Source of the DNA: a virus | Taxonomy: Duplodnaviria; Caudoviricetes | Reading direction: 5' to 3' (one strand) | DNA length: 64,000 nt | IMG/VR virus record: IMGVR_UViG_3300037722_001090 | In this document: positions 26,700-63,994 of the stretch, one piece after another | Numbering within the stretch: position 1 is the stretch's first letter | How the letters are laid out: the number at the start of each line of letters is the position of its first letter | The notes under the pieces: generated by a model | What the model saw: only the letters and a program-made list of their open reading frames with translations | What the model was told of the DNA's origin: nothing | The model's database searches: none | Program-made: the position numbers and the translations under genes

Positions 26700-27510
26700 G
26701 TGATATGTAAATAACATTGGAACAATGTTATGAGTGAAAGAAGTGAACCCAAAGGGTCAGACTTTTTGAGCGACTTCTTTCTGAAAATGGCTATCGAAAC
26801 AACAGCCCGAGATGCAGTTTTTTTTTAAAAAATGTATAAAGAGAGAGTAACCTCTCAAGATACTGACAAGTCAGAGACTCAAAAATTTCGACCTGTGGCG
26901 AGAAATACAATAAGCAAGCGTTTGTTTTTCTTGCCTGTGGTCGAAATAATTTGATGCTGAACTTGGGGTCAGAGACCTTGTTACAACTTATTTTATTTTT
27001 GATTCCTTGTGTTAACAAGGGGCAGTCCGATTTTTAGCTCGTTGAGCTTTTAATCGGCCTGTCATTTTGATCCTGAAAGGGCAAAATTTTCAAAGATAAA
27101 ACAAGTTCACAAGGGCTGAACCTACAGTCAGAGCAAACCTCGTATAACCCCTAGGACGCGTCAGTGTCCGCCGGGTTTGTCGAGCGTGTCGGTAGTTTGC
27201 TGAACTGTACGAGCGTAGCGGTTAAGCTACATAAAATAGGATAAGCGTATCGCCTATCAAAAGCTGTATAAAACCCTGCTCAAGCAAACAGGATATATAC
27301 TCAGGATTTAGGATTCTAAGAATCCTAAATACTATAACTGACTTTACTGAACAGTTTTATCGTCAGAGTAAAGTCAAATCTTCTTGTCTTTGCCGTACCA
27401 GCAAAGATTACTAACAGACAGGGAACATCCAATGTCAATATTTTTGGCTTTATAAGTATCAATTCCGGAAGGATTGGATAGATCATAAGATGTATTTGAC
27501 ATAACCACCA
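26700..27510. ncRNA. large nested multi-hairpin non-coding region upstream of RT (candidate RT template RNA)
   Basis: more than 12 hairpins and long-range pairs; no convincing ORF. Confidence 0.65.
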
Positions 27511-27534
27511 CTGTCATATTAGATTTTCTAAAAT

Positions 27535-28499: not shown

Positions 28500-28502
28500 A
28501 TA

Positions 28503-28730
28503 TTGAGAGGGATTATTTAATAGCAGCAACCCATAGTACGTCGACTATGAGTTAGTTTTTGCTAGAAATCAAGAAATAATATAGGTCTTGACCAGCGCTT
28601 ACGACTTATTTGGTTACCTATTTCACAAACAAGAAGCGAGGACCACGTACACATACGGATAAGTTGGAAATCTTATCTAAAGGTTGCCTGCATCGTCATT
28701 AGAAGTAACTGCTATACTCGCCACTCTCAA
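28503..28730 (-). ncRNA. long Y-RNA-like element
   Basis: TTGAGAG/CTCTCAA and ATAGCAG/CTGCTAT stems with the TGGCG..TTACTTC motif shared with elements at 62-64 kb. Confidence 0.55.
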
Positions 28731-28734
28731 AACT

Positions 28735-31187: not shown

Positions 31188-31188
31188 T

Positions 31189-33067: not shown

Positions 33068-33068
33068 A

Positions 33069-33145
33069 TGGAGACGTGAGTCGGATTCGAACCGACGAAT
33101 AACAGCTTTGCAGGCTGCCCCCTTAAGCCACTTGGGTATCACGTC
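33069..33145 (-). tRNA. tRNA-Cys(GCA)
   Basis: cloverleaf, U73, CCA. Confidence 0.92.
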
Positions 33146-34585: not shown

Positions 34586-34625
34586 TTACCATCCATGTTT
34601 ATCATGACCAAAATTAATAGTCATG

Positions 34626-34635
34626 GTTATTAACA
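34626..34635 (+). promoter_or_regulatory. GTTATTAACA motif upstream of endonuclease gene
   Basis: exact copy, oriented with the plus-strand gene. Confidence 0.6.
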
Positions 34636-34665
34636 AGTATAAATACTATAAAAGGAGTATTATAC

Positions 34666-35346: not shown

Positions 35347-35349
35347 CCA

Positions 35350-35868
35350 TTAGAAGTGATTCCTATTCGTAGGTAGTGACTGAACATGCTTTACTCTGTC
35401 TTTAGCAGCCTGTAGAACTGAAGTTAAGTCATTATATTGCTTAACTCCATAGCGCTCACAAACAATATCAACATTGCCTTTACGCCAAAATCCTTCAGGA
35501 CAACAAACCATAAGTTTATCAGCATGAGAATTAGCATAAAGACCAAGTTCTAATAGGCTGATAGGAGATTTAGTATCTTTATCAAAATACAATATAATAA
35601 TATCTGCCTTTTCAAGAGCAGTTAATTCCCAAGTAACCTGAGAAACAAATTCATTATTACTTTTATCTTGTTTCCAGCTAGAATCCCAATTATCACGTCG
35701 TGGGTTAAATATATTTATATTCTCATCACAAAAAAACTGTACAGCAATTCCTTGCCAGTATATTGCCGTGCCCATTTCAATAGATCCAGCCAAGAAAATA
35801 CTAAAAGTTCCACGAGAGCCATACTTTGGATAATCAGGCAAAGGCATTGGTGCTTTAAATTCTTTCAT
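35350..35868 (-). CDS. nucleoside 2-deoxyribosyltransferase-like protein
   Basis: IFLAGSI, NPRR..W, QV.WEL..LE.AD, SPISLLELG. Confidence 0.85.
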   Translation of the reverse strand: MKEFKAPMPLPDYPKYGSRGTFSIFLAGSIEMGTAIYWQGIAVQFFCDENINIFNPRRDNWDSSWKQDKSNNEFVSQVTWELTALEKADIIILYFDKDTKSPISLLELGLYANSHADKLMVCCPEGFWRKGNVDIVCERYGVKQYNDLTSVLQAAKDRVKHVQSLPTNRNHF

Positions 35869-36051
35869 AACTATACTTTCCTTACATTACGAGCAATGAA
35901 GACATTAGATGTTCCATCAGTCTCTAATACATGCCATCCTTGTGTATTTTTACAAAGATAGGTATAGGAACTCACCGTTGACCAATGAATCCCCATACCT
36001 ACAATCTCTGTACCCCAAATGACCCTATCGCCATATTTGAAGTCATCCATA

Positions 36052-36729
36052 TTAACGACTTAGTGCAGCTTTATATCCACGAACCTGCATTTCAGTAACA
36101 GTATAACCAGCAGCACGAAGCTCACTAGCTACCTGTGCGGACTTTTTACCTTGGCGAAGCTTATAATGGACAGCTTCTTTAAGGCTCATACTTCCAACTT
36201 TAATTGTAGCAGGTTTAACAGCAGGCTTAGTTGCAGCTTGAGTTACAGGAGCAGGCTTAAGAGATCCATTTGCCTTTACAATAGTAGCTTTTACTTTTTC
36301 AGAAAGCTCACGAGCTGCTTTTGCAATAACATCTTCAGTCTTTTCCGTTTTAGTTCCCCAGCAGTCATCATGATCGCTACATTCTGCACAATCAGGACCT
36401 TCTTCTAGTTCGTCACCGGACTCTTCATTTTCTACTTCTTTCGCTTCCGTAAGGAAGTATTCACGGAATACTGCACCATTAATATTTACATTACGGAAAG
36501 TAATATACATATCTTTACCGTCAATATCAGCAGTCATACCAGCAAACGTACAGATATTATATACATCTGACATTAGTTTACTAACGATTTCCTGAGTAGC
36601 ATAATACCCAGTTGTGCGAAGATAGTTTTTAACTTCAAGAGAAGTCACTTTCCCTGCATCAAGCATTGCCCAGTTCATGATAATTCCGACAACATCTGCA
36701 CTTACTACTTTTTTACCAATTGCGCTCAT
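36052..36729 (-). CDS. hypothetical protein
   Basis: 225 aa ORF. Confidence 0.6.
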   Translation of the reverse strand: MSAIGKKVVSADVVGIIMNWAMLDAGKVTSLEVKNYLRTTGYYATQEIVSKLMSDVYNICTFAGMTADIDGKDMYITFRNVNINGAVFREYFLTEAKEVENEESGDELEEGPDCAECSDHDDCWGTKTEKTEDVIAKAARELSEKVKATIVKANGSLKPAPVTQAATKPAVKPATIKVGSMSLKEAVHYKLRQGKKSAQVASELRAAGYTVTEMQVRGYKAALSR

Positions 36730-36734
36730 AGTTC

Positions 36735-37925
36735 TTATCCTTTTAATTGTATTAGAAATTTAATAGTACTTTGATCTTGATTATAGGTAATATATTCATT
36801 ATTGATTAAATCAACACCGCCTTTAGCAAATAGAGAATCATAATCTCCTTTTACTTTAAGCTGAGTTTCATTAAGGCTACCCATCCAAGATTCTCTTCTT
36901 TGGACATCTAGGCTATTGCCAAGATGAACGTCAAACAAAGCCATGATAGCTTCATCTGCACTGCCATTGGCCCAATATGAGCCTCTTCCAGATGTATATC
37001 CATATGATTTTCTTGCTTTATCGGCAAAATAAGTACCATATCCGAACATCTTACCAGAAATAACAGCATTTGTAGGTCTTAGAACAAGACCTGTTTCCAT
37101 AATAGATAGCCAGTTTTCATTACGGCTACCATGGAAAAACATTTCTGTTCTTTTATTTTTTGATTTAGCTACCCAATCATCAAATCGTTTTTGTGTTTTA
37201 TGATTTGTAATACTAAATGCATTATGGAACTTACCTTCAATATCTCCTAGTTTCCCACGAATAGCATTGCGATCAATATCACTAACATTTGACAAGCTTA
37301 GACCCATAGCATCAAGAATAGTTAATTTATCATCAACATTCTCACGCGTAAGTACCGCTTGTTTAACCTGAGAAGACATTGTATCGAGTAGTGCCTGCTC
37401 TCTTACTAGAAGAGGATTAAGTTTATCTGGAGAAAACTCTTTAAGTAGATAATCTTTTACATTACTCATTATGCGAGGAATAACCTGATAAAGATCAATA
37501 AGTAGCTTATTCGTCTCAGGTAAGTCATCAGCTTTCATTAAGGCATTCAGCAATGATTGAGCTTCCTCAACCTGTTTTTGCGTAACAGCACTTGCTGACA
37601 CATTATAAAATGCTGCAACCTCTTTACGTGCATATGCCTGTAGTCCAGCAATAAATCGACTAATAGCAATATCACTAATATCTTGAAAGTCAACTATTTC
37701 ACTAGTGTCTTCAATACATAGGTTAGTAATGTCTTTATATCCTTTAGCTATCTTCTCTCTATAAGTCTTTTCCCACCTACTATTAGGGTAAGTCTTTTTT
37801 TGACTACTAGCACCAACACGACCGAACTCAGCAAGGAAACTTCCATCTCCAGAGTCAGTCATATTATAATATTTATTATTATTTGCATCACCAGTAACCA
37901 TCATTAATTTAATCATTTTAGCCAT
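36735..37925 (-). CDS. PARP-family ADP-ribosyltransferase with WGR and regulatory domains
   Basis: NNNKYY...FGRVG (WGR); FHGSR, GKMFGYGTYFAD..KSYGY, NEYITY (H-Y-E triad). Confidence 0.9.
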   Translation of the reverse strand: MAKMIKLMMVTGDANNNKYYNMTDSGDGSFLAEFGRVGASSQKKTYPNSRWEKTYREKIAKGYKDITNLCIEDTSEIVDFQDISDIAISRFIAGLQAYARKEVAAFYNVSASAVTQKQVEEAQSLLNALMKADDLPETNKLLIDLYQVIPRIMSNVKDYLLKEFSPDKLNPLLVREQALLDTMSSQVKQAVLTRENVDDKLTILDAMGLSLSNVSDIDRNAIRGKLGDIEGKFHNAFSITNHKTQKRFDDWVAKSKNKRTEMFFHGSRNENWLSIMETGLVLRPTNAVISGKMFGYGTYFADKARKSYGYTSGRGSYWANGSADEAIMALFDVHLGNSLDVQRRESWMGSLNETQLKVKGDYDSLFAKGGVDLINNEYITYNQDQSTIKFLIQLKG

Positions 37926-37946
37926 ATATTTACCTTTAAAATAAGC

Positions 37947-38033
37947 TGGAGGAGAGTACTGGACTTGAACCAGTAGAGCTTTTAAGCCCCGACTGTTTAG
38001 CAAACAGCTTCCCTACCATTAGGCGAACTCTCC
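37947..38033 (-). tRNA. tRNA-Ser(GCT)
   Basis: cloverleaf with long variable arm, CCA. Confidence 0.88.
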
Positions 38034-38039
38034 ATTCCA

Positions 38040-39164
38040 CTACTTAAATAAAAATTTAACAATCGTATCAGCACTATTGCGCCATACTTTTTCTAATATA
38101 TCTTTAGACTGAAACTGACCATGTTCTTTACGTAAGCTAAATATAATACCAGTAAAAGGAGTTTTAACTGGCGTATCTTTAGTTACAAAAATAGCAAAAG
38201 ATTTTTGATCTTCATACACCTGAGAAAACGACCAAACAAAGTACAAATCAAGATATGCCATTTGCATCTTAGCTTTAACTTCAGCCATTATATCTGCTAC
38301 TTCAGGAAAATAAGTAAGAACTTCATCTTCTTCGCCTGCAAGAATAAAAGGAATAATATTTTTAGGAAGAAAAATATTATCATTACCCTTAAGCTGATGT
38401 AGCGCAACGTATGTTTTGCTTTTAATTTTCATTCGCAAACCATTTACATCACGAACAACGATACCTTCAAAAGTAGGATCCGACTCTTCTTTCTCATTCA
38501 GAAAAGCAATAACCTCATCAGTATCTTTAAATTTATGAGATTCTGGTCTTTTAAAGTTATGTACTTTTGCGATTACATCGCATAGCCTTGTACTAAATTC
38601 AAGAAGCAATTCATCATATATATGAAATATAGTCAGTAAAATTGCTTTAGATTCAGGATATAGTCGAACTATTTTATTCCATATAGAACAAAACTCAAAT
38701 ACAAGACAAATATCATCCGCAGCCGTAATCTCGTCTGCAGTTTTACCAAGAGCTTCCCAAAAAAATTCAGCCCAAGTCTTACCGCATTCATGAATATTAT
38801 ATTCAGCAAAAGAACCACGAGTATTTACTCTCCAAGTTCCATTATAGTTATATAGAAGAATCAAAGATCCATCTTCTTTATCAAGAGCAGTAGATCCTTC
38901 CCAAACAAATTTATTAGTAATTTCAAGAGCTTCACCGGCATTAAAGAAGCGATTAAAAGCTTTAGCTACAACTTTCCATGTATCTATCTCAAGGACAAGT
39001 CCACGACATTCCATAACAATTGGAAGCATTTTTTGAGATTCAATTTGGTCATAATTAAGGATAACTAAAGGATCTACTGGATGCTTAACCACTTTAATTC
39101 CAAAATGAACAGTAAGGTCTTCCAAAGTCTTACCGTTAAGCAAATATTCTTGTACATGTAACAT
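38040..39164 (-). CDS. T4 Rnl1-like RNA ligase
   Basis: ECRGLV, F.RFFN.GE, KEDGSL, FEFCS..N.IV..Y, EGIVV, KIKS. Confidence 0.88.
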   Translation of the reverse strand: MLHVQEYLLNGKTLEDLTVHFGIKVVKHPVDPLVILNYDQIESQKMLPIVMECRGLVLEIDTWKVVAKAFNRFFNAGEALEITNKFVWEGSTALDKEDGSLILLYNYNGTWRVNTRGSFAEYNIHECGKTWAEFFWEALGKTADEITAADDICLVFEFCSIWNKIVRLYPESKAILLTIFHIYDELLLEFSTRLCDVIAKVHNFKRPESHKFKDTDEVIAFLNEKEESDPTFEGIVVRDVNGLRMKIKSKTYVALHQLKGNDNIFLPKNIIPFILAGEEDEVLTYFPEVADIMAEVKAKMQMAYLDLYFVWSFSQVYEDQKSFAIFVTKDTPVKTPFTGIIFSLRKEHGQFQSKDILEKVWRNSADTIVKFLFK

Positions 39165-39318
39165 AATTAGTCCCTTAAAATCTGAATGTAGCACAAATAT
39201 TAATACCTGCAGCAAAAATCCAATAAAGAGACATCCTAATATCTCCTTTTATCAAATACGTAATACTAGCTATAGTCATTAATGTTATGATAATTAAAGG
39301 AAAGATCTTTTCCATAAG

Positions 39319-39846
39319 TTAAATTACTTTCAAAAACCTACTGACAAGTTCCATATCATCAAACACATCATTGCCTGCAGAGTTATTTCGTATTACATAA
39401 GCAGGATGCCATGTAGCCATTAATGGAACACCTTGGTATGAATGCCATTTACCTCGCAATACAGAAATAGCATTACTTTTACCACTTAAGAACTGAGCAG
39501 CAAACTTACCAAGTGTAATAATGACCTTAGGTTTAACCTCTGCTATTTGACTAATAAGGTAAGGAGTACAGGCAGATATTTCATCAGGCTCAGGATTTCT
39601 ATTGCTAGGAGGTCTACATTTACAAATATTAGCAATATAAACATCTTCTCTCTTAACACCAAGAACTTTAATATATTTATCTAACATCTTACCTGATTGC
39701 CCACAGAAAGGCACACCAGTAGCATCCTCAGTAGCCCCAGGAGCCTCTCCAACGAACATAATGTCAGCAGTAATACTACCGCTACCAATTACAATATTAG
39801 TTCGTGTGTTATGAAGTTTACATTTCTTACAGTCTGTAATTATCAT
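39319..39846 (-). CDS. uracil-DNA glycosylase family 4
   Basis: CKKC Fe-S, VGEAPG..ED..G.PF.G.SG, KCRPPSNR, WHPAY. Confidence 0.93.
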   Translation of the reverse strand: MIITDCKKCKLHNTRTNIVIGSGSITADIMFVGEAPGATEDATGVPFCGQSGKMLDKYIKVLGVKREDVYIANICKCRPPSNRNPEPDEISACTPYLISQIAEVKPKVIITLGKFAAQFLSGKSNAISVLRGKWHSYQGVPLMATWHPAYVIRNNSAGNDVFDDMELVSRFLKVI

Positions 39847-40148
39847 CTTATCACCACCTAAAGCAAATACTAGTATATGGATCTCTTTGATCACCATGTG
39901 AAACTTCTACTGTATATCCATCTACTTTAAGTAATGTTTTTACAAGTGCTTCCTGAGTATAACTTAAACGGATAGGATTAGTTCCTGTAGTAGCCCAACT
40001 GCCAAGCGAAATACTGGTTTTACCGGCTTTAGCAGCATCTATAATTCTATCATTAAGCCATTCCATGAATAGCTTTATATTATTATTATCTACATTTTTT
40101 GATAATTCTTTAGCCATAGATGCTTTAATCATGTCCTTCTCCAATATT

Positions 40149-41579
40149 TTACAGTTTATTTTTATCAAATACAGGACGTAGACTTTCAACCCTAGGACAA
40201 GACATAACTCCTTCATCCTTAGTGAATTCTTGGCTTGTACAAATAACAATGCGATTCATAAAAGAGTCAGGATCAGCAGCAAACTCAAGCTTAAATGCTC
40301 TAGTCAACAATTTACCAGTACCAACGCCCGATCTCTTAAGTTCGCCTCTGTCATTAATATACTCAACAATAAGCCTCCCAAGCATAGGAGGATATGGAGT
40401 ACCATCAGTCTTATAAGATGTTTTAGCTACTTCCCAACCTACAATCTTACAGTCAACAGGTTCAGTTTTACATTTAATCTTGATCTGACTATTGTCTTTA
40501 GTAAATCCATACTTGCCATTACCAGCCTTAAGGACAATACCCTCTTTACCTTCAGAGATAAGCTTATTGGCAATAACATAAGCTTCTGCTTTATTGGAAA
40601 CCTTCTCACCAACAACAATAGCAAGTCTTTGGTTATTTATAATCATTGGCTGGACAGTAGTGAGTAGATACTCTCTTCTAACATCATATTCATCAGGAAT
40701 TGATTCAGAATCAAACTCATCTCTATCAAGAATTTCAAAGATTTTTACTTTAATTCTAGAGGCAATATCTTCCATCTCAGCTTTACGCTTAAGATATTTA
40801 GCCCAGCCAGAGCCAACCTTGCCAGTTTTACCTTTAAAATCATTTTCAGTTTTAGTAAAATCAAAACCAGAAAAAGATTGAATTTCTTCTAGATTATCAT
40901 CACATTCTACTTCACAATCTACAACTTTATTCTTAAGATTAAGTTTCTCGATAAAAGTATTTAGAAAACTAAAGTTTTCAATAGGCAAACCAGATCTTCC
41001 AATAGGAGACTTTAGTTCACAGAATGGAGTTCTATCAATCCTACCATCAGTATCAGTATACCAAAAAGTCCTGAAGCCATTAATCTTATGTCCAGGATAT
41101 GCCCCTCTTGTATAATCCATCTTATCAATAGATGCTTCAGATTTAGCACCAGAACAATTAAAGTCAAGGATTAACTTTTCTTCAAATGCAGCATTAACAA
41201 TAGCACCACCAATACCAATACTGGCAAGATCTTTCTGAAGACATTTAACATACCATTTCTTTTCATAATTAGTACAAGTAATAAGAAAGTTATTAATTGC
41301 ACCAAGAGCATTATGTCCAGTGAGAGATCTATTTCTAAGGCTATTAGTTAATATTACAAAATTATCCCACGTACTAAGACCCATTTTCCCAAGATAAGTT
41401 TCATTATCTACAGGTTTAATCTCTTTAATGCCAAACGTAACACGATCATCCATCGCCAAATAAAGAAACTCTTTAAGATGAGCAGTTTCTGCATTATCTT
41501 TCAAGAGCTTTTTTTTATCATTAGTTCCAGTTGTTTTTTCTAACTCTTCAAGTATACGAATAAACGGATTTCTTAGCAT
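40149..41579 (-). CDS. ATP-dependent DNA ligase
   Basis: T4-like N-terminal domain, HKINGFR (motif I variant), EGIVLK, KIK, OB domain GVGTG. Confidence 0.82.
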   Translation of the reverse strand: MLRNPFIRILEELEKTTGTNDKKKLLKDNAETAHLKEFLYLAMDDRVTFGIKEIKPVDNETYLGKMGLSTWDNFVILTNSLRNRSLTGHNALGAINNFLITCTNYEKKWYVKCLQKDLASIGIGGAIVNAAFEEKLILDFNCSGAKSEASIDKMDYTRGAYPGHKINGFRTFWYTDTDGRIDRTPFCELKSPIGRSGLPIENFSFLNTFIEKLNLKNKVVDCEVECDDNLEEIQSFSGFDFTKTENDFKGKTGKVGSGWAKYLKRKAEMEDIASRIKVKIFEILDRDEFDSESIPDEYDVRREYLLTTVQPMIINNQRLAIVVGEKVSNKAEAYVIANKLISEGKEGIVLKAGNGKYGFTKDNSQIKIKCKTEPVDCKIVGWEVAKTSYKTDGTPYPPMLGRLIVEYINDRGELKRSGVGTGKLLTRAFKLEFAADPDSFMNRIVICTSQEFTKDEGVMSCPRVESLRPVFDKNKL

Positions 41580-44326: not shown

Positions 44327-45751
44327 TCATAGTAACTCCGCAGCAAGTTCTGCCAGCTCACTTCTTTCACCTTTAGTCAAAATAATATGTGCAGCAATTT
44401 TTTCGTTTTTAAATCTTTCAGCAACATACGTAAGTCCATTACTAGAAGAATCAACGTAAGGGTTATCAATCTGATACGGGTCGCCAGTAAGAATAATCTT
44501 AGTACCTTCACCTGCTCTTGTAATAATAGTTTTAACCTCGTGAGGGGTCAAATTCTGCGCCTCATCAACGATAAAATACTGCTTAGGGATAGACCTACCT
44601 CTGATAAAAGAAAGCGCTCCTACCTCAAGTTTACCTATTGCCTGAAGATAATCAACAGGACTCATATTGCCAGCCTCTTTATCGAAACTGCCTTTATGTA
44701 GAATCTTATTATCTGCTTTACCTAGGATTACTTCGATATTATCCCAAATAGGTTGCATCCAAGGAGCCATCTTTTCATTAAGTGTACCAGGCAAAAATCC
44801 AATATCTTGTTTTCCAAGAGAAATGACAGGTCTAGTTACAAGAACGCGATCAAAAGTATCAGTTTCCGTAGCACCGTAAAGTCCAGCAGCAATAGCCATT
44901 AAAGTTTTACCTGTGCCTGCTTTACCAATTAAAGTTACTAGCTTAATATTCGGATCAAGAAGCAAGTCCATAGCAAAGCGCTGTTCTCTATTCCTAGGAA
45001 TCAATCCAGAAGGAGCATTATCTTTTGTAATATCTGTAATCCGACAAAGAATATCTAAGGATGAATCATAGCGAGTAAGAACTGAATGCTTTGGATCTAC
45101 CGAAGATACCAAAGTAACACATTCATTAGGAGAAAAAAGAACACTGCTGTTGTCATGTGTAATAACACCCAGTTCCGAAATAATTTCCAGTTCCGAAACA
45201 CGAACACATCCATCACCATCTTTTTTATAGAGATCATCAATTTGCGCACCATTAACTCCTAACTGTGAATGTCCAGTAAAAAGAGTATCTATACTAACTC
45301 TATCATTATGATATACTTCAGAGAGAATACCAATAGCATTAGCTTTAATTCTAGCATTAGCATCATTAGAGACAAAGACAACTTTTACATCAGAATTACC
45401 ATAAACAGAAGTAGAGTAATAATGAGCAACAGCAATAATTCTATTATCAGCAACAATCTGTGAAAGCTCCCTTGGCATACCATCAAAATAAGCGGTAGGA
45501 CAAAAAGAAATTTTCAGATTACCACCACTCTTAAGGTCTACCCCTGTATCTAGCTGGCCTTCTGCGCGGAGAGAATCAAGATTTCTACCAGTCTCTCTAG
45601 CATTACGGCCAATCTCATTCATTTCACTTTTAAAGTTATCAATCTCCTCAATAACAGTAATAGGAATAATAATATCATTATCATTAAACCTAAAAATAGC
45701 ATTAGGGTCATGAAGTAAAACATTTGTATCTAGCACAAAGACCTTTTTCAT
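44327..45751 (-). CDS. phoH: PhoH-like protein with N-terminal PIN domain
   Basis: VLDTNVLLHDP, GKAGTGKT, IRGRS, DEAQN, GDPYQID. Confidence 0.93.
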   Translation of the reverse strand: MKKVFVLDTNVLLHDPNAIFRFNDNDIIIPITVIEEIDNFKSEMNEIGRNARETGRNLDSLRAEGQLDTGVDLKSGGNLKISFCPTAYFDGMPRELSQIVADNRIIAVAHYYSTSVYGNSDVKVVFVSNDANARIKANAIGILSEVYHNDRVSIDTLFTGHSQLGVNGAQIDDLYKKDGDGCVRVSELEIISELGVITHDNSSVLFSPNECVTLVSSVDPKHSVLTRYDSSLDILCRITDITKDNAPSGLIPRNREQRFAMDLLLDPNIKLVTLIGKAGTGKTLMAIAAGLYGATETDTFDRVLVTRPVISLGKQDIGFLPGTLNEKMAPWMQPIWDNIEVILGKADNKILHKGSFDKEAGNMSPVDYLQAIGKLEVGALSFIRGRSIPKQYFIVDEAQNLTPHEVKTIITRAGEGTKIILTGDPYQIDNPYVDSSSNGLTYVAERFKNEKIAAHIILTKGERSELAELAAELL

Positions 45752-45765
45752 ATCAGGTCCTTTCA

Positions 45766-46242
45766 TTATTTGGATTGTTTTAAAAACAAAGAAACATTTT
45801 CTGGAACATATTGATCAATATTTTTACCATGCTTACGTAACTCTCTTACAAGTGAAGAGCTTATAGTCTTATAAAATCCATTTGAATTTATAAAAACAGT
45901 ATAAGCATTACCGATATTATGATTAATATCAGCAAGTCTAGATTCTTCAATCATATCTTGAGTATCACGAACACCACGAACAATATATTTGATATTATTC
46001 TCTTTCATGAAATCAACAACAAGATTATCAGTAGAAACTATCTCAATTATATCACACGGTATTTGTCTATAATATTGTTTAATAAGTTCAATCCGTGATG
46101 TTTCACAAAGCATATACTTTTTGTTAGGATTATTTGCAACAAGAATATATACCTTATCAAATATATTTCTAGCTTGGTGTACAAGCTCAACATGTCCAAC
46201 TGTAAACGGGTCAAATGATCCTGGAAATACACAACTACTCAT
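45766..46242 (-). CDS. coaD: phosphopantetheine adenylyltransferase
   Basis: FPGSFDPFTVGH, VRGVR, ISSSLVRE. Confidence 0.88.
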   Translation of the reverse strand: MSSCVFPGSFDPFTVGHVELVHQARNIFDKVYILVANNPNKKYMLCETSRIELIKQYYRQIPCDIIEIVSTDNLVVDFMKENNIKYIVRGVRDTQDMIEESRLADINHNIGNAYTVFINSNGFYKTISSSLVRELRKHGKNIDQYVPENVSLFLKQSK

Positions 46243-58357: not shown

Positions 58358-58645
58358 CTATTTAGATTTATTTAACCATTTTAAGCATTTCTTTTCAGTA
58401 AATGCTTTTATTTCCTCGTCAGTAATGTTTGGGTCATGAATGCGGATCAAATCAAGAAGGCAGATAATAGCATCAATTGCCTCTCCGACAATACCATCTT
58501 CGCTTGGATTCCTATTCTTACGACCGTTATGAATAGCAAGTTCTGTTGATAGTTCACCAACCTCTTCTACTACAGCAAGCATTACATCAGAAACCTTACG
58601 ACCATTAGTGATCGCATCAGATACTTCAAATATAGTTTTAATCAT
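58358..58645 (-). CDS. MazG-like protein
   Basis: VEEVGEL...GEAIDAIICLLD. Confidence 0.6.
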   Translation of the reverse strand: MIKTIFEVSDAITNGRKVSDVMLAVVEEVGELSTELAIHNGRKNRNPSEDGIVGEAIDAIICLLDLIRIHDPNITDEEIKAFTEKKCLKWLNKSK

Positions 58646-59331
58646 TATTTCACTTCATTCATTAACTCTACTGTTTTGCAGTAATTAACTTCATTAAGAA
58701 TATCATTCTTATCCGCAACAGTAAGAAACCTATGATCACGTAACTTTGTACGGATTAACTCACTTGCTCCTCGACAGCTTTTAGAACTAGTAATCAATAG
58801 TTCGATTTGACCAATATCTAAAATTTGATCTTTCACTGTCTCTTTAGTTGGAATCGTAACAATTACTTGTTCTGGTCCATTATTTTTTTGAATGCTTCCA
58901 GAAATAGATTGCCACTGGTCATCAGTTAAAAGATCCTTAAAGGTATGATGGTCTTGAAAATGATAAATACTCATACAATTTTGGATATGAATATCCATAA
59001 ATTTTTGTAACGAAAGAACAATATCTTTCATATCTGCAAATGGATACTCAGGGATATCTTTCCTGTTTATAAGTACACTAACTATAGGGTCTATTGATTC
59101 ACGACCCCAATCAGAATTAATAATACTCATAACATGATGTTCAGTAGGAAGCATCTTATTATTATCAATATTTATATTCCATTTATTAAATATTGGAAAT
59201 AATATAGCGGTTATAATACCAATTATTGCAATACCTATTAAAAGTTCAATGAGAGAAAAGCCTTTTTTATTTTTAATCATTGCTTGTATTCCTGTTTTTC
59301 TTATAACCCTCGACAATAAAATATTCACCAC
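58645..59331 (-). CDS. protein with type IV prepilin-like N-terminal motif
   Basis: KKG|FSLIELLIGIAIIGII class III signal. Confidence 0.65.
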   Translation of the reverse strand: MVNILLSRVIRKTGIQAMIKNKKGFSLIELLIGIAIIGIITAILFPIFNKWNINIDNNKMLPTEHHVMSIINSDWGRESIDPIVSVLINRKDIPEYPFADMKDIVLSLQKFMDIHIQNCMSIYHFQDHHTFKDLLTDDQWQSISGSIQKNNGPEQVIVTIPTKETVKDQILDIGQIELLITSSKSCRGASELIRTKLRDHRFLTVADKNDILNEVNYCKTVELMNEVK

Positions 59332-60109
59332 TCAAAGTTCCATCAGTAAAATAATTAATAGAATTTACCGTAGTTTGAACAGTGCGCCAGAAACATACCT
59401 CTACACCATAAATATTAAATATCTCAGCAGCATAAAAATCACGCAACTTAGGATACTCTCTTTTTATCATTTGATACAATACTTCATAGAGGTGTATGTC
59501 AAAACTAAGTTCTTCTTGACGTGTATCAGTAGAGATTCGACGAGCTTGAACATAGCTTACATTAGGATAATTCCCAGCGAGCTTAATTATATCTTTAAAC
59601 TCATCGATATTATAGTGATTTACAACAATTGAAACTCTAGAGTTAGGAGTGTTTGTTAAGATATAATCCCAATTAGGAAGATCTGATCTGCCCATAATCG
59701 CCTTATTTGATTCAGGATTAAGCGCATTAATGGAATAACCAATCTCATCATCACAAAGCTGAATAATATCCATCTTCTTTTCAGCAAGATAACCATTAGT
59801 GCGAAGACCAACAGTAAAGCTTCTGTTCTTCAAGAAGATAATTAACTGAGCAAGAAACTTATATTGAAGTGAATCAACATTCTGTCCAGTAATATAGATT
59901 TTTGTGATTTCCTTTTCTCTACACATGTCCAAAAAGGCATCAAAATTCTCCCACTCCAAGAAATGAGTATCAATCTGATTATGTAAAGTTAGTAGTTCAT
60001 CAATATCTTTACCTAGGCAAAAATAGCAATTAGCATTACACTTACCAAGCAGGTTAATATTGGCAAACGTATACTTCTCTCGCTCTCTGTTTTTATCAAA
60101 GATTTCCAT
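59273..60109 (-). CDS. radical SAM protein
   Basis: KCNANCYFC, ITG, LRTNG, YSINA. Confidence 0.8.
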   Translation of the reverse strand: MEIFDKNREREKYTFANINLLGKCNANCYFCLGKDIDELLTLHNQIDTHFLEWENFDAFLDMCREKEITKIYITGQNVDSLQYKFLAQLIIFLKNRSFTVGLRTNGYLAEKKMDIIQLCDDEIGYSINALNPESNKAIMGRSDLPNWDYILTNTPNSRVSIVVNHYNIDEFKDIIKLAGNYPNVSYVQARRISTDTRQEELSFDIHLYEVLYQMIKREYPKLRDFYAAEIFNIYGVEVCFWRTVQTTVNSINYFTDGTLSGEYFIVEGYKKNRNTSND

Positions 60110-61347
60110 TAGATTTTCCCAGTCAAGTTAAAGATAATATCAGCATGATCAGAAAAGATTTCTCCATTCTCACTCATAGACTCAATCTCATACAAAGGGA
60201 TCCATTTAGCGAAAGCAGCGTCATCAGACCCCTTGACCTTAGATAGGCCAGATGCTCTAGAAGGAAGTTCAATTAAAAATGCATGGGTAATAATACGACC
60301 ACGAAGATCACGATCAGGATGATCAAATACTCCGGTCTTTGCCTTCTTAAACAAGTCAAGAAGCATTGCAGGCGGAACATCAATCTTAGTTTCCTCAACA
60401 AGTTCACGCCTACCAGCAGCACGAATAGTTTCACCTTTAGCTGCATCAAGAAATCCACCAGGAAGAGCCCACTGCCCATTACCAGGCTGTCCACCACGCT
60501 GGATCATAAGAACATGTCCAGACTCAATCATAACTGCATCAGTAGTTACAAACGTAGGAGCATAAGGAGCAACCTCCCATGACTTCCTATATTTCTGAAC
60601 AAAGAGATATTCTTTATGTAGACGTTCATAGTTTTCAGACTTACTCCAATCAAGCAAATAATTAAGAACGCTATTAGGAAGAAACTCTTTTGCTATTTCA
60701 ATAAAAGGAACAAGACGACAGTCATCTTTAAAGTATACATTCCTTATATCATTAGCATTAAGATCACCCTTAGAGCTTACCTCAACAAAGTCCCACTGAG
60801 GAAACATATCAAGATAAAAACTAGAAGCATCCTTACGATGTCCAATAACAGCAATCTTAGGTGACTTATAAAATGCACCACTATTACTGTATCCATTATA
60901 GGTGATACGAGCAATTTGAAGTCCAACTTCTTTAGCCCAATGCTGATCATTATAAGCATAGTCTGCAATGCCTTTAATTTTAAACCGACCAACAAGTTCA
61001 GGTATGCACTCTTCAATTGCAAGAGTAATCATAACTTCTCTGTCTTCCATTCTCCATGGATTCTTAATAGAGCGTGCACGATTACGCGAACCGCACAAAA
61101 TAATTACTTCATTAGCAAGCCTAGATGCTTCTTTAAGGACATGTATATGTCCTAGGTGAATAGGCTCGAATCTTCCGATAAAAATAATCTTATCATATTC
61201 TTTCTTTTCAGTTTCTTTTTCAAACTGAGGTTGTACATCTTTGTCAGACCATAGCTTTCTTATACGACCATAATCATCATCACCAGGCCCATAAAATGGC
61301 AGTGATTTTCGGTTAGGTCCTTGTCCAGGACCAAATAGTGTTTCCAT
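60109..61347 (-). CDS. bifunctional NMN adenylyltransferase / Nudix ADP-ribose pyrophosphatase
   Basis: IGRFEPIHLGH, KNPW, WALPGGF...RELVEET, DDA..A.W. Confidence 0.93.
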   Translation of the reverse strand: METLFGPGQGPNRKSLPFYGPGDDDYGRIRKLWSDKDVQPQFEKETEKKEYDKIIFIGRFEPIHLGHIHVLKEASRLANEVIILCGSRNRARSIKNPWRMEDREVMITLAIEECIPELVGRFKIKGIADYAYNDQHWAKEVGLQIARITYNGYSNSGAFYKSPKIAVIGHRKDASSFYLDMFPQWDFVEVSSKGDLNANDIRNVYFKDDCRLVPFIEIAKEFLPNSVLNYLLDWSKSENYERLHKEYLFVQKYRKSWEVAPYAPTFVTTDAVMIESGHVLMIQRGGQPGNGQWALPGGFLDAAKGETIRAAGRRELVEETKIDVPPAMLLDLFKKAKTGVFDHPDRDLRGRIITHAFLIELPSRASGLSKVKGSDDAAFAKWIPLYEIESMSENGEIFSDHADIIFNLTGKI

Positions 61348-61371
61348 AGGAACTCCTCCTTGGGTTGTTAT

Positions 61372-61402
61372 AAAAAAAGGGGGACGCAAAGTCCCCCTTT
61401 TT
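61372..61402. terminator. bidirectional terminator-like hairpin
   Basis: A7-GGGGGAC-GCAAA-GTCCCCC-T5. Confidence 0.75.
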
Positions 61403-61927: not shown

Positions 61928-62005
61928 TGGCTAGGGATGAGAGATTCGAACTCCCGCAAGACGCAGGATCAAAACCTGCCGCTCTACCAATTGAGCTAAT
62001 CCCCA
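61928..62005 (-). tRNA. tRNA-Gln(TTG)
   Basis: U1-A72, G73, CCA. Confidence 0.9.
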
Positions 62006-62059
62006 ATGAAAAATACAACCTAGTTTCGCACCATGCTAATAGGTTGGAATAATATGTTA

Positions 62060-62207
62060 TTGTGAGGAATAAACGATGAGAGTATATTATACGCGTTCTA
62101 GCCAGTTAAACTACAGCCCTAGATTATATTACACTAGTAGAGCCGTCAGGATTTGAACCTGAATTCCGTCCTTGACATGGAAGTAACTCTTATCTACACC
62201 ATCACAA
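62060..62207 (-). ncRNA. YrlA-like Y RNA / permuted tRNA mimic
   Basis: T arm plus CGGCTCT precede AGGGCTG plus D arm; closing stem TTGTGA/TCACAA. Confidence 0.65.
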
Positions 62208-62216
62208 AATAAAAAT

Positions 62217-62291
62217 TGGTAGCTCCTGACAGAATTGAACTGTCTTTTTCGCTTTGTAAGAGCGACGTAATGCCCATTATACCAAGGAGCT
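62217..62291 (-). tRNA. tRNA-Val(TAC)
   Basis: TCGCT-CTTACAA-AGCGA, CCA. Confidence 0.85.
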
Positions 62292-62303
62292 ATCTTATAA
62301 ATA

Positions 62304-62391
62304 TGTATAAGGAATTAGCGAAAACGGAAATGTGTGCTTGGTTTATATTCAATTATAAGTAAGAAGTAACCGTTCTCTTCGCCATTATACA
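62304..62391 (-). ncRNA. short Y-RNA-like element without tRNA domain
   Basis: TGTATA-ATGGCGAAGA-GAACGG-TTACTTC...CCGTTT-TCGCTAATTCCT-TATACA. Confidence 0.6.
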
Positions 62392-62401
62392 ATTCTAAAT
62401 T

Positions 62402-62477
62402 TGGTGGGGCCTTCCGGTAACGATCCGAATTCTTCTGTTCTTCAAACAGACGTGAGCACCTGCTTCACCAAAGCCCC
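62402..62477 (-). tRNA. tRNA-Phe(GAA), atypical T loop
   Basis: TCTGT-TTGAAGA-ACAGA; T loop ATCGTTA; CCA. Confidence 0.8.
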
Positions 62478-62754
62478 AAATACCTCATCAGTATGTAATT
62501 CGTAAAGTTAAGAGGCATACATTCCATGTACTTTATTACCGCAAGAGGCTCGCTCTTAACTAAATTGTAAACTATAGTCCATATATCCGTTACATTAAGT
62601 GGTTTTGAAACCTATGTCTTCAGTGCCCCTCCAACATACTTTACTTAAACGCCCACTACAAGACACAATGCTTGCTAAAAGTCTCGCGTAATATACAGAA
62701 TTGCCACGTAAACGTGGTCTTCAAGCCCGATAGATTAAATCCAGAGCGGGAACA

Positions 62755-62830
62755 TGGTGTGCGCGGTCGGGATTGAACCGACGACCTGTAGATTAAAAGT
62801 CCACTGCTCTACCAACTGAGCTACGCGTAC
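62755..62830 (-). tRNA. tRNA-Lys(TTT)
   Basis: canonical cloverleaf, CCA. Confidence 0.92.
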
Positions 62831-62833
62831 ATT

Positions 62834-62974
62834 TTTATTAGGGTATAAGCGAAAAGAGTGTTTAAATCGGATGCTCTACCAACTGAGCTATATCGTTCGC
62901 GTGAGCTTTCAATAATGGGAATTGAACCCATGACCGTCTGAGGGGAAGTATCTCTTATCTACGCCACTAATAAA
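62834..62974 (-). ncRNA. YrlA-like Y RNA / permuted tRNA mimic
   Basis: TTTATTAG/CTAATAAA closing stem; T arm before D arm. Confidence 0.65.
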
Positions 62975-62980
62975 CTTTAA

Positions 62981-63400
62981 TTAACTTGTTCTACCTATAG
63001 TTAGATGTAATCCATAATCATATGGAAAACCCATCTCTTTTCTGATATCAATGAGAAAATCACATTCAACATCAATAAACCAAAAAGGACTTGGCACGCT
63101 TAAGCCAGTTCTATCACCAGCTTGTCTTACGTTGCTACTATAAGTAAATTCTACTTCTAAGCCATTATACTTTTTCCAAAGATCCATATTATTTGGAAAT
63201 GGCTTCTCTCCTCGTATGATCGAAACATGTGAACCCCAAGATGGTTTGTTAAGCTCAACCCCCATCTCTTTAAAGGCCCACCAGCGATAATATCTAGTAA
63301 TATCTGCATCAATATTAAGAACACACCACCAGTCTTTTTTTTTCTTAAGTCCTGGCCTATAAGGATCATACTGAATAATGCCTTTACTGCTATGAATCAT
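62981..63400 (-). CDS. 2H phosphoesterase-like protein
   Basis: SHVSI and LHLTI (two HxS/T motifs about 70 aa apart). Confidence 0.6.
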   Translation of the reverse strand: MIHSSKGIIQYDPYRPGLKKKKDWWCVLNIDADITRYYRWWAFKEMGVELNKPSWGSHVSIIRGEKPFPNNMDLWKKYNGLEVEFTYSSNVRQAGDRTGLSVPSPFWFIDVECDFLIDIRKEMGFPYDYGLHLTIGRTS

Positions 63401-63604
63401 TACACTTTATTAGGCGGATTTTCCTGCCAGCGCTTCAGAGCTTTTTCAGCAACAGGATCACCGGGATGAAGTTCAAGATGTTTAGCAAGAATACGCATTT
63501 TATTATCACGAGTACGTGCACGCTTAGCGGCAATTTCACCCGGAGTAGCTTTTTTACCATTTTTACCTTTAGCCATGACAAACTCCATAATTCTAGTTAT
63601 AGGT

Positions 63605-63681
63605 TGGTGCCCCATATTGGATTTGAACCAATGACCTTCCGCTTCGTAGGCGGACGCTCTATCCAGCTGAGCTAATGTGGC
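63605..63681 (-). tRNA. tRNA-Arg(ACG)
   Basis: canonical cloverleaf, CCA. Confidence 0.92.
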
Positions 63682-63687
63682 AAATTA

Positions 63688-63830
63688 TTTTACAAGGAAC
63701 AAACGACAACACAAATTTTTAGCGCTCTACCGATTGAGCTACACATATGCTTTTGGCATACATGACAGGACTCGAACCTGCAACCACTCTATTAGCATTA
63801 GATGTAAGTGTTATCTACGCCATTGTAAAA
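63688..63830 (-). ncRNA. YrlA-like Y RNA / permuted tRNA mimic
   Basis: TTTTACA/TGTAAAA closing stem; T arm-CATGTAT-G-CCA-linker-ATATGTG-D arm. Confidence 0.68.
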
Positions 63831-63846
63831 CTGAAATTTTCTTAAG

Positions 63847-63994
63847 AAATATAAGGAACATTCGGATACAGATAGTTTTTTGTGCTACCATTACAACACA
63901 TGCCCATGTTTCATTATGGTGGACACGCTCGGATTCGAACCGAGACCGCATTATTATAAGTATTGAAGTAACTGTATTCTACACCATTATATTT
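63847..63994 (-). ncRNA. YrlA-like Y RNA / permuted tRNA mimic
   Basis: T arm-CGTGTCC-A-CCA-linker-GGGCATG-D arm; inner stem ATACAG/CTGTAT. Confidence 0.68.

What the first reader, a model, noticed from the sequence alone, without database searches (positions are those of the whole stretch)
62060..63994. Cluster of five Y-RNA-like elements, four being circularly permuted tRNA mimics
Seen: five elements share [stem1]-RTGGYGWAGA-[stem2]-(T/A)TAC(T/A)TC ... [stem2']-(T/C)CG..(T/A)..CC-[stem1'], with different but compensating stems (TTTTACA/TGTAAAA, TTTATTAG/CTAATAAA, TTGTGA/TCACAA, TGTATA/TATACA). In four of them the insert is T arm, then acceptor 3' strand, linker, acceptor 5' strand and D arm; two have CCA inside the linker. 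Each 3' half pairs with the 5' half that follows it, so the order is truly permuted. Established: bacterial YrlA Y RNAs have this topology, with a Ro60/Rsr-binding bulged helix (GNCGAA-like) replacing the anticodon arm. No Ro60 gene is in this window. Inference: an expanded, diversified phage Y RNA family that may sponge or retarget host Rsr/PNPase, or decoy tRNA-sensing defences. The CCA-bearing copies might be processed into chargeable anticodon-less tRNAs.
Basis: partly seen in the sequence, partly recalled or inferred. Interest (0 to 1): 0.75.

Follow-up and report, generated by a model that had tools for sequence, protein, structure and literature searches.

The report
Phage Ro60 partner Y RNA genes
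Five small RNA genes tucked between the tRNA genes of an uncultured sediment phage belong to the Y RNA family, the RNA partners of the ring-shaped protein Ro60. The phage's own Ro60 gene lies just beyond the window, and four of the RNAs carry a back-to-front tRNA look-alike, as known bacterial Y RNAs do, so the find is sound but not a new kind of thing.

Summary
Five minus-strand elements (A-E, 62058-63994) share one handle: a closing stem, U-GG, an internal loop YGWA facing GYUUGUU, a second stem, then UUACUUC. Four carry a T arm, a closed acceptor-like hairpin and a D arm in that order.

The phage has its own Ro60 (TROVE+vWA) gene about 7.5 kb upstream on the same strand, just outside the window. 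Two more copies sit 1.2 and 2.0 kb from that gene, and one or two diverged copies lie near 27.4-28.7 kb.

The same handle occurs in many viral contigs. 53 of 55 records that carry it encode TROVE, against 0 of 37 control records. 62 of 63 copies lie within 2 kb of the TROVE gene on its strand. Arrays are common: 7 copies in Caulobacter phage CcrColossus, and 3-7 next to TROVE genes in Bradyrhizobium and other bacteria.

Rfam YrlA scores these RNAs at 18-56 bits, below its cut-off of 69. The CCA in two linkers is at chance level.

Verdict: new members of a known kind (Ro60-Y RNA). Binding, expression and function remain inferred. This scan has noted similar Ro60-RNA sets on other phage DNA.

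The parts
63847..63994 (-). Element A: long-form Y RNA-like gene. It has the handle plus a hairpin, T arm, acceptor-like hairpin (7 bp, 10-nt linker holding CCA) and D arm.
   Evidence: Exact motif hit. Handle model R1 scores 52.3 bits, E 2.4e-12. Aligned with relatives. A15:U48, U8 and A14 present.
63688..63830 (-). Element B: long-form Y RNA-like gene. It ends 6 nt before tRNA-Arg.
   Evidence: R1 44.9 bits. Rfam YrlA 40.9 bits, E 4.7e-7, below the cut-off of 69. The MFE fold gives the handle, a hairpin with a 7-nt loop, T arm, 9-bp acceptor hairpin and D arm. After circular permutation ARAGORN calls it a tRNA with an intron.
62834..62974 (-). Element C: long-form Y RNA-like gene. It ends 3 nt before tRNA-Lys. 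It has no hairpin before the T arm and its acceptor helix is irregular.
   Evidence: R1 46.4 bits. Rfam YrlA 28.9 bits. G15:C48 present. Its D arm is 19/19 identical to positions 8-26 of the neighbouring tRNA-Lys.
62303..62392 (-). Element D: short-form (YrlB-like) Y RNA-like gene lying between tRNA-Phe and tRNA-Val. It has no tRNA-like domain.
   Evidence: R1 65.2 bits, E 5.5e-16, but D was in the model's training alignment. MFE fold z = -2.07.
62377..62383 (-). GGCGAAG in element D: an exact match to the published Ro60-associated motif GNCGAAN0-1G. Its CGAA lies in the internal loop.
   Evidence: Sequence read. Motif definition from PMC4201824. The CGAA loop was shown to matter for phage phiLo Ro60 binding in PMC12135203.
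62058..62209 (-). Element E: long-form Y RNA-like gene. It starts 7 nt after tRNA-Val and has an 8-bp acceptor helix with a 16-nt linker.
   Evidence: R1 53.6 bits. Rfam YrlA 17.8 bits. After permutation ARAGORN calls it a tRNA with an intron. A15:U48 present.
27414..27518 (-). Element I: a diverged, probable further copy of the handle (UGGUGGUUA, AUACAUC, closing stems GACAG/CUGUC and UGUCAA/UUGACA).
   Evidence: R1 27.7 bits, E about 2e-5, with filters on and off. Sequence.
28505..28733 (-). Element F: a candidate further copy with an insert of about 175 nt that is not tRNA-like. It ends 5 nt before the tRNA with anticodon CUA and starts right after the kinase gene.
   Evidence: Motif hit with 2 mismatches. 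By eye 7/7 and 6/6 closing pairs, an exact TTACTTC and a terminal CC. The covariance model did not find it.
61928..63681 (-). Context: the tRNA genes interleaved with the elements. They are Arg 63605-63681, Lys 62755-62830, Phe 62402-62477, Val 62217-62291 and Gln 61928-62005. Gaps between an element and the adjoining tRNA (Arg, Lys, Phe, Val) are 3-11 nt, A to B is 16 nt, and E to tRNA-Gln is 52 nt.
   Evidence: ARAGORN and Rfam tRNA hits. Spacing table.

Best explanation
The five elements are genes for Y RNAs, the non-coding RNA partners of Ro60. They are made by an uncultured, large sediment phage that also encodes its own Ro60.

Each RNA folds so that its two ends pair into a conserved handle. 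From the outside in, the handle is a closing stem, a bulged U, a GG:CC step, an internal loop with YGWA (CGAA, CGUA or UGUA) facing GYUUGUU, a GA:UC step leading into a second stem, and then the near-invariant UUACUUC. By analogy with YrlA/YrlB and with Yrl1/Yrl2 of Thermus phage phiLo, this handle is the docking site for the phage Ro60 ring (inferred).

On top of the handle, four copies display a tRNA-shaped module (T arm, closed acceptor-like hairpin, D arm, with the tRNA tertiary-contact bases). One copy displays only a hairpin. The tRNA-like module would serve as the effector end, recruiting or occupying tRNA-binding enzymes or host PNPase (inferred).

The genes sit 3-16 nt from tRNA genes or from one another. 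They are most likely transcribed with the tRNA array and released by the tRNA-processing enzymes (inferred).

The set probably works with the phage's RNA-repair genes (RlaP, two RNA ligases, a Thg1-like enzyme, a kinase) in RNA surveillance or repair, or in blunting host RNA-directed defences (inferred; least certain).
For: Shown here:

(1) The shared motif exceeds chance.

(2) Covariation supports the fold. In 32 long forms, 93.6% of cells are paired against 39-50% when the partner is slid, and 24 of 30 pairs show double changes. The T, acceptor and D helices, which were not used to select the sequences, are 97-99% paired. Short forms give the same result.

(3) The tRNA hallmark bases are kept: U8 32/32, A14 32/32, D-loop GG 32/32, and the 15:48 pair as G:C in 25 and A:U in 5. 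After circular permutation ARAGORN accepts 27 of 32 as tRNAs with an intron.

(4) Rfam YrlA hits B, C and E and nine relatives at E 1e-5 to 1e-7.

(5) Linkage to Ro60 is strong. 46 of 48 motif-bearing viral records encode TROVE, including 22 of 22 near-complete ones, and 7 of 7 further model-positive records do too. None of 37 records with chance motif hits does. 62 of 63 copies lie on the TROVE strand within 2 kb. RlaP is present in only 7 of 48 records.

(6) This phage has a 475-aa TROVE+vWA_Ro60 protein. It was reached through contigs that are 100% identical over 4692 and 2601 bp of overlap. Two more copies lie 1.2 and 2.0 kb downstream of it. In those copies the invariant G:C step is replaced by A:U, a compensatory change; 12 of 150 family members show the same change.

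(7) The nearest solved structure to the protein is phiLo Ro60 (9KOP/9L5Y, E 2.5e-13). That protein binds Y-like RNAs with CGAA in an internal loop flanked by a 5'-3' stem (PMC12135203).

(8) Features defined in print are present: GNCGAAN0-1G (exact in D), YUAY (UUAC or AUAC in all five), and the V, T, AS and D stem-loops (PMC4201824).
Against: No RNA data exist for this phage, so transcription, RNA ends and processing are unproven.

Binding to Ro60 is inferred from gene linkage and from analogy with other systems.

The five window copies lie 7.5-9.4 kb from the Ro60 gene. That is beyond the 4 kb used in the 2014 survey and further than 62 of the 63 relatives measured.

Four of the five copies depart from GNCGAAN0-1G by one or two bases.

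All copies score below Rfam's YrlA cut-off (at most 40.9 bits against 69).

The outer and inner handle stems were used to pick the relatives, so covariation in those two helices is partly built in by selection.

Single-sequence folding energies for A, C and E are not better than shuffles.
Confidence: 0.85

Rival explanations
1. They are circularly permuted tRNA genes. Their transcripts would be cut in the acceptor linker, and the handle removed or joined, to give working or chargeable tRNAs, as in the permuted tRNA genes of the red alga Cyanidioschyzon merolae.
For: The 3' acceptor strand comes before the 5' strand and the two pair. After permutation ARAGORN accepts B and E as tRNAs with an intron. 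A and E have the longest acceptor linkers among 32 relatives, and A has CCA after a 7-bp stem. M. smegmatis YrlA is cut by RNase P and receives CCA (PMC4201824).
Against: D has the same handle and no tRNA part at all. The handle is conserved and tied to TROVE genes. Most relatives close the acceptor stem with a GNRA- or UUCG-type tetraloop, and CCA is at chance level, 7 seen against 7.7 expected. C lacks any anticodon-like hairpin. The phage already has ordinary tRNAs for the same region.
Confidence: 0.03
2. The RNAs are real and structured but act without Ro60. They could be decoys for host nucleases that sense or cut tRNAs, or partners of another protein, with the Ro60 linkage being only co-inheritance within an RNA-repair island.
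For: The five window copies lie 7.5-9.4 kb from the Ro60 gene, inside a tRNA array and near RNA-repair genes. UUACUUC is more strongly conserved than the CGAA-like loop and could be a second binding site. About 60% of long forms have a hairpin with a 4-5 bp stem and a 7-nt loop that looks like an anticodon loop.
Against: In 62 of 63 relatives the RNA abuts the TROVE gene on its strand. 53 of 55 carrier records have TROVE against 0 of 37 controls, while RlaP is present in only 7 of 48. The published phage Ro60 binds RNAs of this architecture.
Confidence: 0.08
3. They are decayed leftovers of tandem tRNA genes (T arm of one, D arm of the next) and have no function. The 2014 survey warned of this kind of false positive.
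For: They lie in a tRNA array. C's D arm is identical to that of the next tRNA. The Rfam YrlA score comes mostly from the T and D arms.
Against: None overlaps a called tRNA. All carry a handle that covaries across more than 150 copies in phages and bacteria. The tertiary-contact bases are kept.
Confidence: 0.02

Closest known systems
YrlA and YrlB, the bacterial Y RNAs of Salmonella Typhimurium and Mycobacterium smegmatis (Rfam RF02553; Chen et al. 2014, PMC4201824; Wang et al. 2018, bioRxiv 10.1101/312249)
   Same: The two ends pair into a stem that carries a GNCGAA-like motif near the 5' end. A conserved YUAY follows. Then come an optional V stem-loop, a T arm, a closed acceptor-like stem and a D arm, with the tRNA tertiary bases and a covarying 15:48 pair. 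A short partner RNA lacks the tRNA domain. The genes lie on the Ro60 strand, and several copies per locus occur.
   Different: The loop motif is mostly CGUA or UGUA rather than CGAA. The 3' strand carries a conserved 7-nt GYUUGUU, and UUACUUC is near-invariant. Scores are 18-41 bits in this window and 37-56 bits in relatives, against the Rfam cut-off of 69. The five window copies lie 7.5-9.4 kb from Ro60 and are scattered among tRNA genes. The hairpin before the T arm often has an anticodon-arm shape.
Thermus phage phiLo Ro60 with Yrl1 and Yrl2 (PDB 9KOP, 9L5Y; PMC12135203)
   Same: A phage-encoded Ro60, which is the closest solved relative of this phage's protein (E 2.5e-13). Its small RNAs are encoded beside the gene and have a 5'-3' stem flanking an internal loop with CGAA. 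Binding was shown by gel shift and cryo-EM, and a ternary complex with host PNPase slows that nuclease.
   Different: phiLo has two RNAs, and the paper describes no tRNA-like domain in them. I could not find phiLo in the phage collection, so I could not test whether its RNAs fit the handle model.
Caulobacter phage CcrColossus Ro60 locus (NC_019406; named among phages with Ro60 and Y RNA-like RNAs in PMC12135203, which cites Chen et al. 2014)
   Same: The Ro60 is 40% identical to this phage's. Seven copies of the same handle RNA lie on the Ro60 strand.
   Different: There the copies form one tight tandem array within 1.2 kb upstream of the gene. Here they are spread over 9 kb among tRNA genes, with one or two more about 35 kb away.
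Deinococcus radiodurans Rsr-Yrn1-PNPase machine (RYPER)
   Same: The working model: a Y RNA docks on Ro60 by its stem and tethers an effector by its other end.
   Different: Yrn1 has a different arrangement of tRNA-like parts. No effector is known for the phage RNAs.
Circularly permuted tRNA genes of Cyanidioschyzon merolae
   Same: The 3' half of the tRNA is encoded before the 5' half.
   Different: Those genes are processed into working tRNAs and have no Ro60 handle. Nothing here indicates such processing.

Membership tests
YrlA/YrlB-type Y RNA (Chen et al. 2014) | GNCGAAN0-1G motif near the 5' end | tested here: inconclusive
   D matches exactly (GGCGAAG). B and C have GGCGUAG, one mismatch. 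A and E have GGUGUAG, two mismatches. Across 150 family members the G and the second A are invariant or nearly so, and the middle base is U in 103 and A in 37.
YrlA/YrlB-type Y RNA (Chen et al. 2014) | The 5' and 3' ends pair into a stem that holds the motif in a bulged or internal-loop region | tested here: met
   The RNAalifold consensus and pair counts give 86-95% paired in the two handle helices, with many double changes. These two helices were used to select the relatives.
YrlA/YrlB-type Y RNA (Chen et al. 2014) | Conserved YUAY before the V or variable region | tested here: met
   UUAC in A, B, D and E, and AUAC in C. U-A-C is present in 147-150 of 150 relatives.
YrlA (tRNA-like subclass) | T stem-loop, closed acceptor-like stem-loop and D stem-loop in that order, with the tRNA tertiary bases and a compensating 15:48 pair | tested here: met
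   Met in A, B, C and E, not in D. 27 of 32 permuted forms are accepted by ARAGORN.
YrlA/YrlB-type Y RNA (Chen et al. 2014) | Encoded on the same strand as a Ro60 (TROVE) gene and within 4 kb of it | tested here: inconclusive
   The strand is the same. The five window copies lie 7.5-9.4 kb downstream, so the 4-kb rule is not met by them. Sibling copies G and H lie 1.2 and 2.0 kb downstream. Of the relatives, 62 of 63 lie within 2 kb.
Rfam RF02553 YrlA | Score at or above the curated gathering cut-off of 69 bits | tested here: not met
   B scores 40.9 bits, C 28.9 and E 17.8. A and D give no match. Relatives in phages and bacteria score 37-56 bits.
Y RNA in general | Physical binding to Ro60 | not testable with these tools
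   Only gene linkage and analogy with phiLo are available.
Permuted tRNA gene (functional) | Processing at the acceptor ends into a mature tRNA with a 3' CCA and a usable anticodon arm | tested here: inconclusive
   There are no RNA data. CCA is at chance level, most relatives have tetraloop-closed acceptor stems, and C has no anticodon-like hairpin.

The most novel reading that the evidence does not exclude
In this subfamily the long forms would be complete, circularly permuted tRNAs rather than anticodon-less mimics. The hairpin before the T arm is often a 4-5 bp stem with a 7-nt loop that has U at loop position 2 and a purine at position 6. In the 32-sequence consensus a 5-nt AGGUC-type variable loop follows it. 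The loop triplets differ between paralogs (UAU, GCU and GUC in A, B and E).

A phage carrying seven to nine such RNAs on one Ro60 handle could present a panel of anticodon-arm decoys or baits. These might be aimed at host anticodon nucleases, or might bring the phage's tRNA-repair enzymes (RlaP, ligases, Thg1-like) to damaged tRNAs.
Probability: 0.1. Interest if true: 0.7.

Novelty: new member of a known kind. Interest (0 to 1): 0.38.

Why it matters
What Ro60 and its Y RNAs do in bacteria and phages is still largely open.

This phage shows the system in a rich form: one Ro60 gene and seven to nine diverged partner RNAs, woven into a tRNA array and surrounded by RNA-repair genes.

The wider result may be more useful than the five genes themselves. 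One sharply conserved handle marks Ro60-linked RNAs in many phages, including cultured ones such as CcrColossus, the Xanthomonas phage Tenjo group, crAss001 and RsoM2USA. It also marks them in Bradyrhizobium, Acidobacteria and other bacteria. Rfam's curated cut-off misses all of those scanned (the short forms and some long forms match no Rfam family at all). A dedicated model would let these RNAs be annotated. It would also correct at least one apparent misannotation: a tRNA-Gln called inside one of the CcrColossus elements.

Tried and rejected
- Phage collection searches with the 2-kb region: the megablast search found nothing, and the more sensitive search found only tRNA matches.
- Exact 32-mer search of viral contigs: no record holds it.
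- No whole genome is held for the window, so the first TROVE search failed. I reached the Ro60 gene through identical metagenome contigs instead.
- Sequencing runs: no RNA holder is listed. All 11 holders are sediment or soil DNA runs, so expression and RNA ends could not be examined and read laying was not used.
- Thermus phage phiLo: it did not appear among the 60 best Ro60 matches in the phage collection, so its validated Yrl RNAs could not be scored with the handle model.
- The supplementary tables of the 2014 paper are not held.
- Element F: not found by the covariance model even with filters off, probably because of its 175-nt insert. It rests on reading by eye.
- DUF6717 search: nothing rang anywhere, controls included, so that blank says nothing.
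- Single-sequence folding: z-scores for A, C, E and I are not significant. The evidence for structure is comparative.
- The 277-nt ORF-free gap between tRNA-Lys and tRNA-Phe: no fold better than shuffles (z 0.34) and no Rfam match.
- Matching the hairpin loops of A, B and E to the anticodon arms of the phage's own tRNA-Ile(UAU), Ser(GCU) and Asp(GUC): only the loops resemble them, not the stems.
- Repeated DNA or a mobile element, considered and rejected: the copies share only 17-19 nt blocks.
Full report
**What is there.** All five elements lie on the minus strand, as do nearly all genes of the window. Shuffled sequence gives 0.4 matches even when two mismatches are allowed.

Each match is closed by two helices whose sequences differ between copies but stay complementary. 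A conserved 3' strand of the form UCGYUWWUWCC lies between them.

The extents are A 63847-63994, B 63688-63830, C 62834-62974, D 62303-62392 and E 62058-62209. The elements alternate with real tRNA genes (Arg, Lys, Phe, Val, Gln). Gaps to the adjoining tRNA genes are 3 to 11 nt, A to B is 16 nt, and only E to tRNA-Gln is longer, at 52 nt.

Apart from the shared motifs the copies are very different. Only 17-19 nt blocks match between them, so they are old paralogs and not fresh duplicates.

**Structure.** I scanned the viral contig collection with the motif. In 58 loci the match had the full architecture with its own compensating stems. A covariance model later recovered copies in 15 of the rest.

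The family has two size classes. Short forms are about 65-115 nt. Long forms are about 133-170 nt and carry a tRNA-like insert.

I aligned 32 long forms, including A, B, C and E. The consensus has these parts:
- a closing stem, a bulged U and a GG:CC step;
- an internal loop with YGWA on the 5' side and GYUUGUU on the 3' side;
- a GA:UC step running into the second stem;
- UUACUUC;
- a T arm, an acceptor-like hairpin and a D arm.

In that alignment 93.6% of cells form pairs, against 39-50% when the partner column is slid. 24 of 30 pairs show changes on both sides, and no shuffle out of 500 reaches the observed covariation score. The two handle helices were part of my selection rule, so their figures are inflated. 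The T, acceptor and D helices were not selected on, and they are 97-99% paired.

The tRNA tertiary-contact bases are kept: U8, A14 and the D-loop GG in 32 of 32 sequences. The 15:48 Levitt pair covaries, G:C in 25 and A:U in 5. A, B and E have A:U and C has G:C.

When the long forms are cut in the acceptor loop and rejoined end to end, ARAGORN accepts 27 of 32 as tRNAs with an intron. B and E are among them.

**The partner gene.** The window holds no Ro60 gene. I looked up the small ORF at 62981-63400 in public assemblies. This gave contigs identical to the window that run past its end. Walking one step further gave L003, which is 100% identical to L001 over its 2601-bp overlap. L001 in turn is 100% identical to the window over 4692 bp.

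L003 encodes a 475-aa protein with TROVE and Ro60-type vWA domains. In window terms the gene would lie at about 71456-72883 on the minus strand, 7.5 kb upstream of A.

In a 31.6-kb assembly of the same phage an RlaP nucleotidyltransferase gene lies just upstream of it.

The closest solved structure is the Ro60 of Thermus phage phiLo (E 2.5e-13). That protein was shown to bind two small RNAs encoded beside its gene. Each has a terminal stem flanking an internal loop with CGAA. With them it forms a complex with host PNPase that slows the nuclease (PMC12135203).

**More copies in this phage.** I built a covariance model of the handle from 31 short forms. It finds A-E and three more copies:
- G (L003 3314-3471, a long form, 1.2 kb after the Ro60 stop codon);
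- H (L003 4169-4245, a short form, right after tRNA-Pro);
- I (window 27414-27518, a diverged copy).

In G and H the otherwise invariant first G:C of the GG:CC step is A:U, a compensatory change. The same change is seen in 12 of 150 family members.

A further candidate, F (28505-28733), has 13 of 13 closing pairs and an exact UUACUUC. It has a 175-nt insert and was seen only by eye. It ends 5 nt before a tRNA with anticodon CUA.

The phage therefore has seven firm copies and one or two more.

**Linkage across genomes.** Of 48 viral records carrying the full architecture, 46 encode TROVE, including all 22 that are at least 90% complete. Seven further model-positive records also encode it. None of the 37 searchable records whose motif hit was a chance match does.

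62 of 63 copies lie on the TROVE strand within 2 kb of the centre of the gene, which means directly before or after it. RlaP is present in only 7 of the 48 records.

The handle is not confined to phages. A stricter pattern that matches only short forms found 53 loci in bacterial genomes, among them Bradyrhizobium, Acidobacteriaceae, Caulobacter and Verrucomicrobia. 40 of these have a TROVE gene within the 8 kb fetched.

Arrays are the rule. There were 163 model hits in 58 viral loci, a median of 2.5 per locus. Copy numbers in cultured phages are 7 in CcrColossus, 4 in Xanthomonas phage Tenjo, 2 in Ralstonia phage RsoM2USA and 1 in crAss001. Eight bacterial loci carry 3 to 7 each.

**Comparison with what is known.** Chen et al. 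(PMC4201824) defined YrlA by four features:
- a GNCGAAN0-1G motif near the 5' end;
- a conserved YUAY;
- an optional V stem-loop, then T, acceptor-like and D stem-loops with the tRNA tertiary bases;
- a position within 4 kb of Ro60 on its strand.

They reported 355 such RNAs in 254 bacteria and 22 phages. YrlB is the short partner without the tRNA part.

The elements here have all of these features in relaxed form. D matches the motif exactly, B and C miss by one base, and A and E miss by two. All five have UUAC or AUAC.

Rfam's YrlA model hits B, C and E, and relatives in phages and bacteria, at E values down to 6.5e-10. It never reaches its curated cut-off: at most 40.9 bits in the window and 56 bits elsewhere, against 69.

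I therefore file them as members of the Ro60/Y RNA kind, in a handle-defined subfamily that standard annotation misses. They are not a new kind.

Earlier notes of this scan describe similar Ro60-RNA sets in other phages. I reached the count independently.

**What is not supported.** The CCA in the linkers of A and B is at chance level: 7 of 32 hairpins hold CCA, with 7.7 expected. Most relatives close the acceptor stem with a tetraloop. Nothing points to release of chargeable tRNAs.

A role for the host's Rsr is not needed, because the phage carries its own Ro60.

Transcription, processing, binding and function are all inferred. No RNA run holds this sequence.

**A side observation.** The hairpin between UUACUUC and the T arm is the V stem-loop of the 2014 paper. 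In 22 of 36 long forms it has a perfect 4-5 bp stem and a 7-nt loop. 16 of those 22 have U at loop position 2 and a purine at position 6. In the family consensus a 5-nt AGGUC-type loop follows the hairpin.

ARAGORN takes this hairpin as the anticodon arm in about half of the permuted forms. This fits the published idea that YrlA arose from a tRNA dimer (bioRxiv 10.1101/312249). It also leaves room for the bolder reading given in the section on the most novel reading.

The stems of these hairpins in A, B and E do not match the phage's own tRNAs.

Noticed in passing
window 27414-27518 (-): A diverged handle-type element (I) lies in an ORF-poor stretch about 0.76 kb upstream of the retron-type reverse transcriptase gene at 25884-26657. 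I did not examine whether it relates to that gene's non-coding RNA.
   Followed up: partly
window 28422-28733 (-): Candidate element F has a 175-nt insert that is not tRNA-like. It sits right after the AAA_33 kinase and Thg1-like genes and 5 nt before a tRNA with anticodon CUA, which ARAGORN calls tRNA-Pyl and which would read the amber stop codon.
   Followed up: partly
L152 5167-5335 (Caulobacter phage CcrColossus, NC_019406 about 109122-109290): The annotated tRNA-Gln (D866_gt024, locus 5173-5240) lies inside one of seven handle-type Y RNA-like elements upstream of the Ro60 gene. It is probably the tRNA-like domain of that RNA, miscalled as a tRNA.
   Followed up: partly
window 29222-41579 and 36735-38003 (-): The window holds a dense set of RNA-repair and NAD-related genes: Thg1-like (29222-29950), a kinase (28735-29232), an Rnl2-type ligase (30171-31187), a T4 Rnl1-type ligase (38040-39215), a PARP-domain protein (36735-38003), a PIN-PhoH protein (44327-45766), and NAMPT, NAPRTase and NMNAT-Nudix genes (56052-61389).
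   Followed up: no
L001 754-836 and 1941-2014: ARAGORN reports two tRNA-like genes in the array with two-base 'anticodons' (gc, gg). Rfam tRNA scores the first at 51.7 bits. They may be odd tRNAs or tRNAs with unusual anticodon loops.
   Followed up: no
L157-L209 (bacterial genomes): The same handle RNA occurs in arrays of 3-7 next to TROVE genes in Bradyrhizobium, Caulobacter, Edaphobacter, Reyranella, Rhizobiaceae and Verrucomicrobia. Those TROVE proteins are 50-70% identical to phage versions.
   Followed up: partly
window 62478-62754 (-): A 277-nt stretch with no long ORF lies between tRNA-Lys and tRNA-Phe. It has no Rfam match and no fold better than shuffles. It begins with UGUUCC, which resembles the 3' end of a handle and may be chance.
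   Followed up: partly
window 62885-62903 vs 62805-62823 (-): The D arm of element C is 19/19 identical to positions 8-26 of the tRNA-Lys gene that follows it 3 nt downstream. This hints at sequence exchange between Y RNA genes and neighbouring tRNA genes.
   Followed up: no
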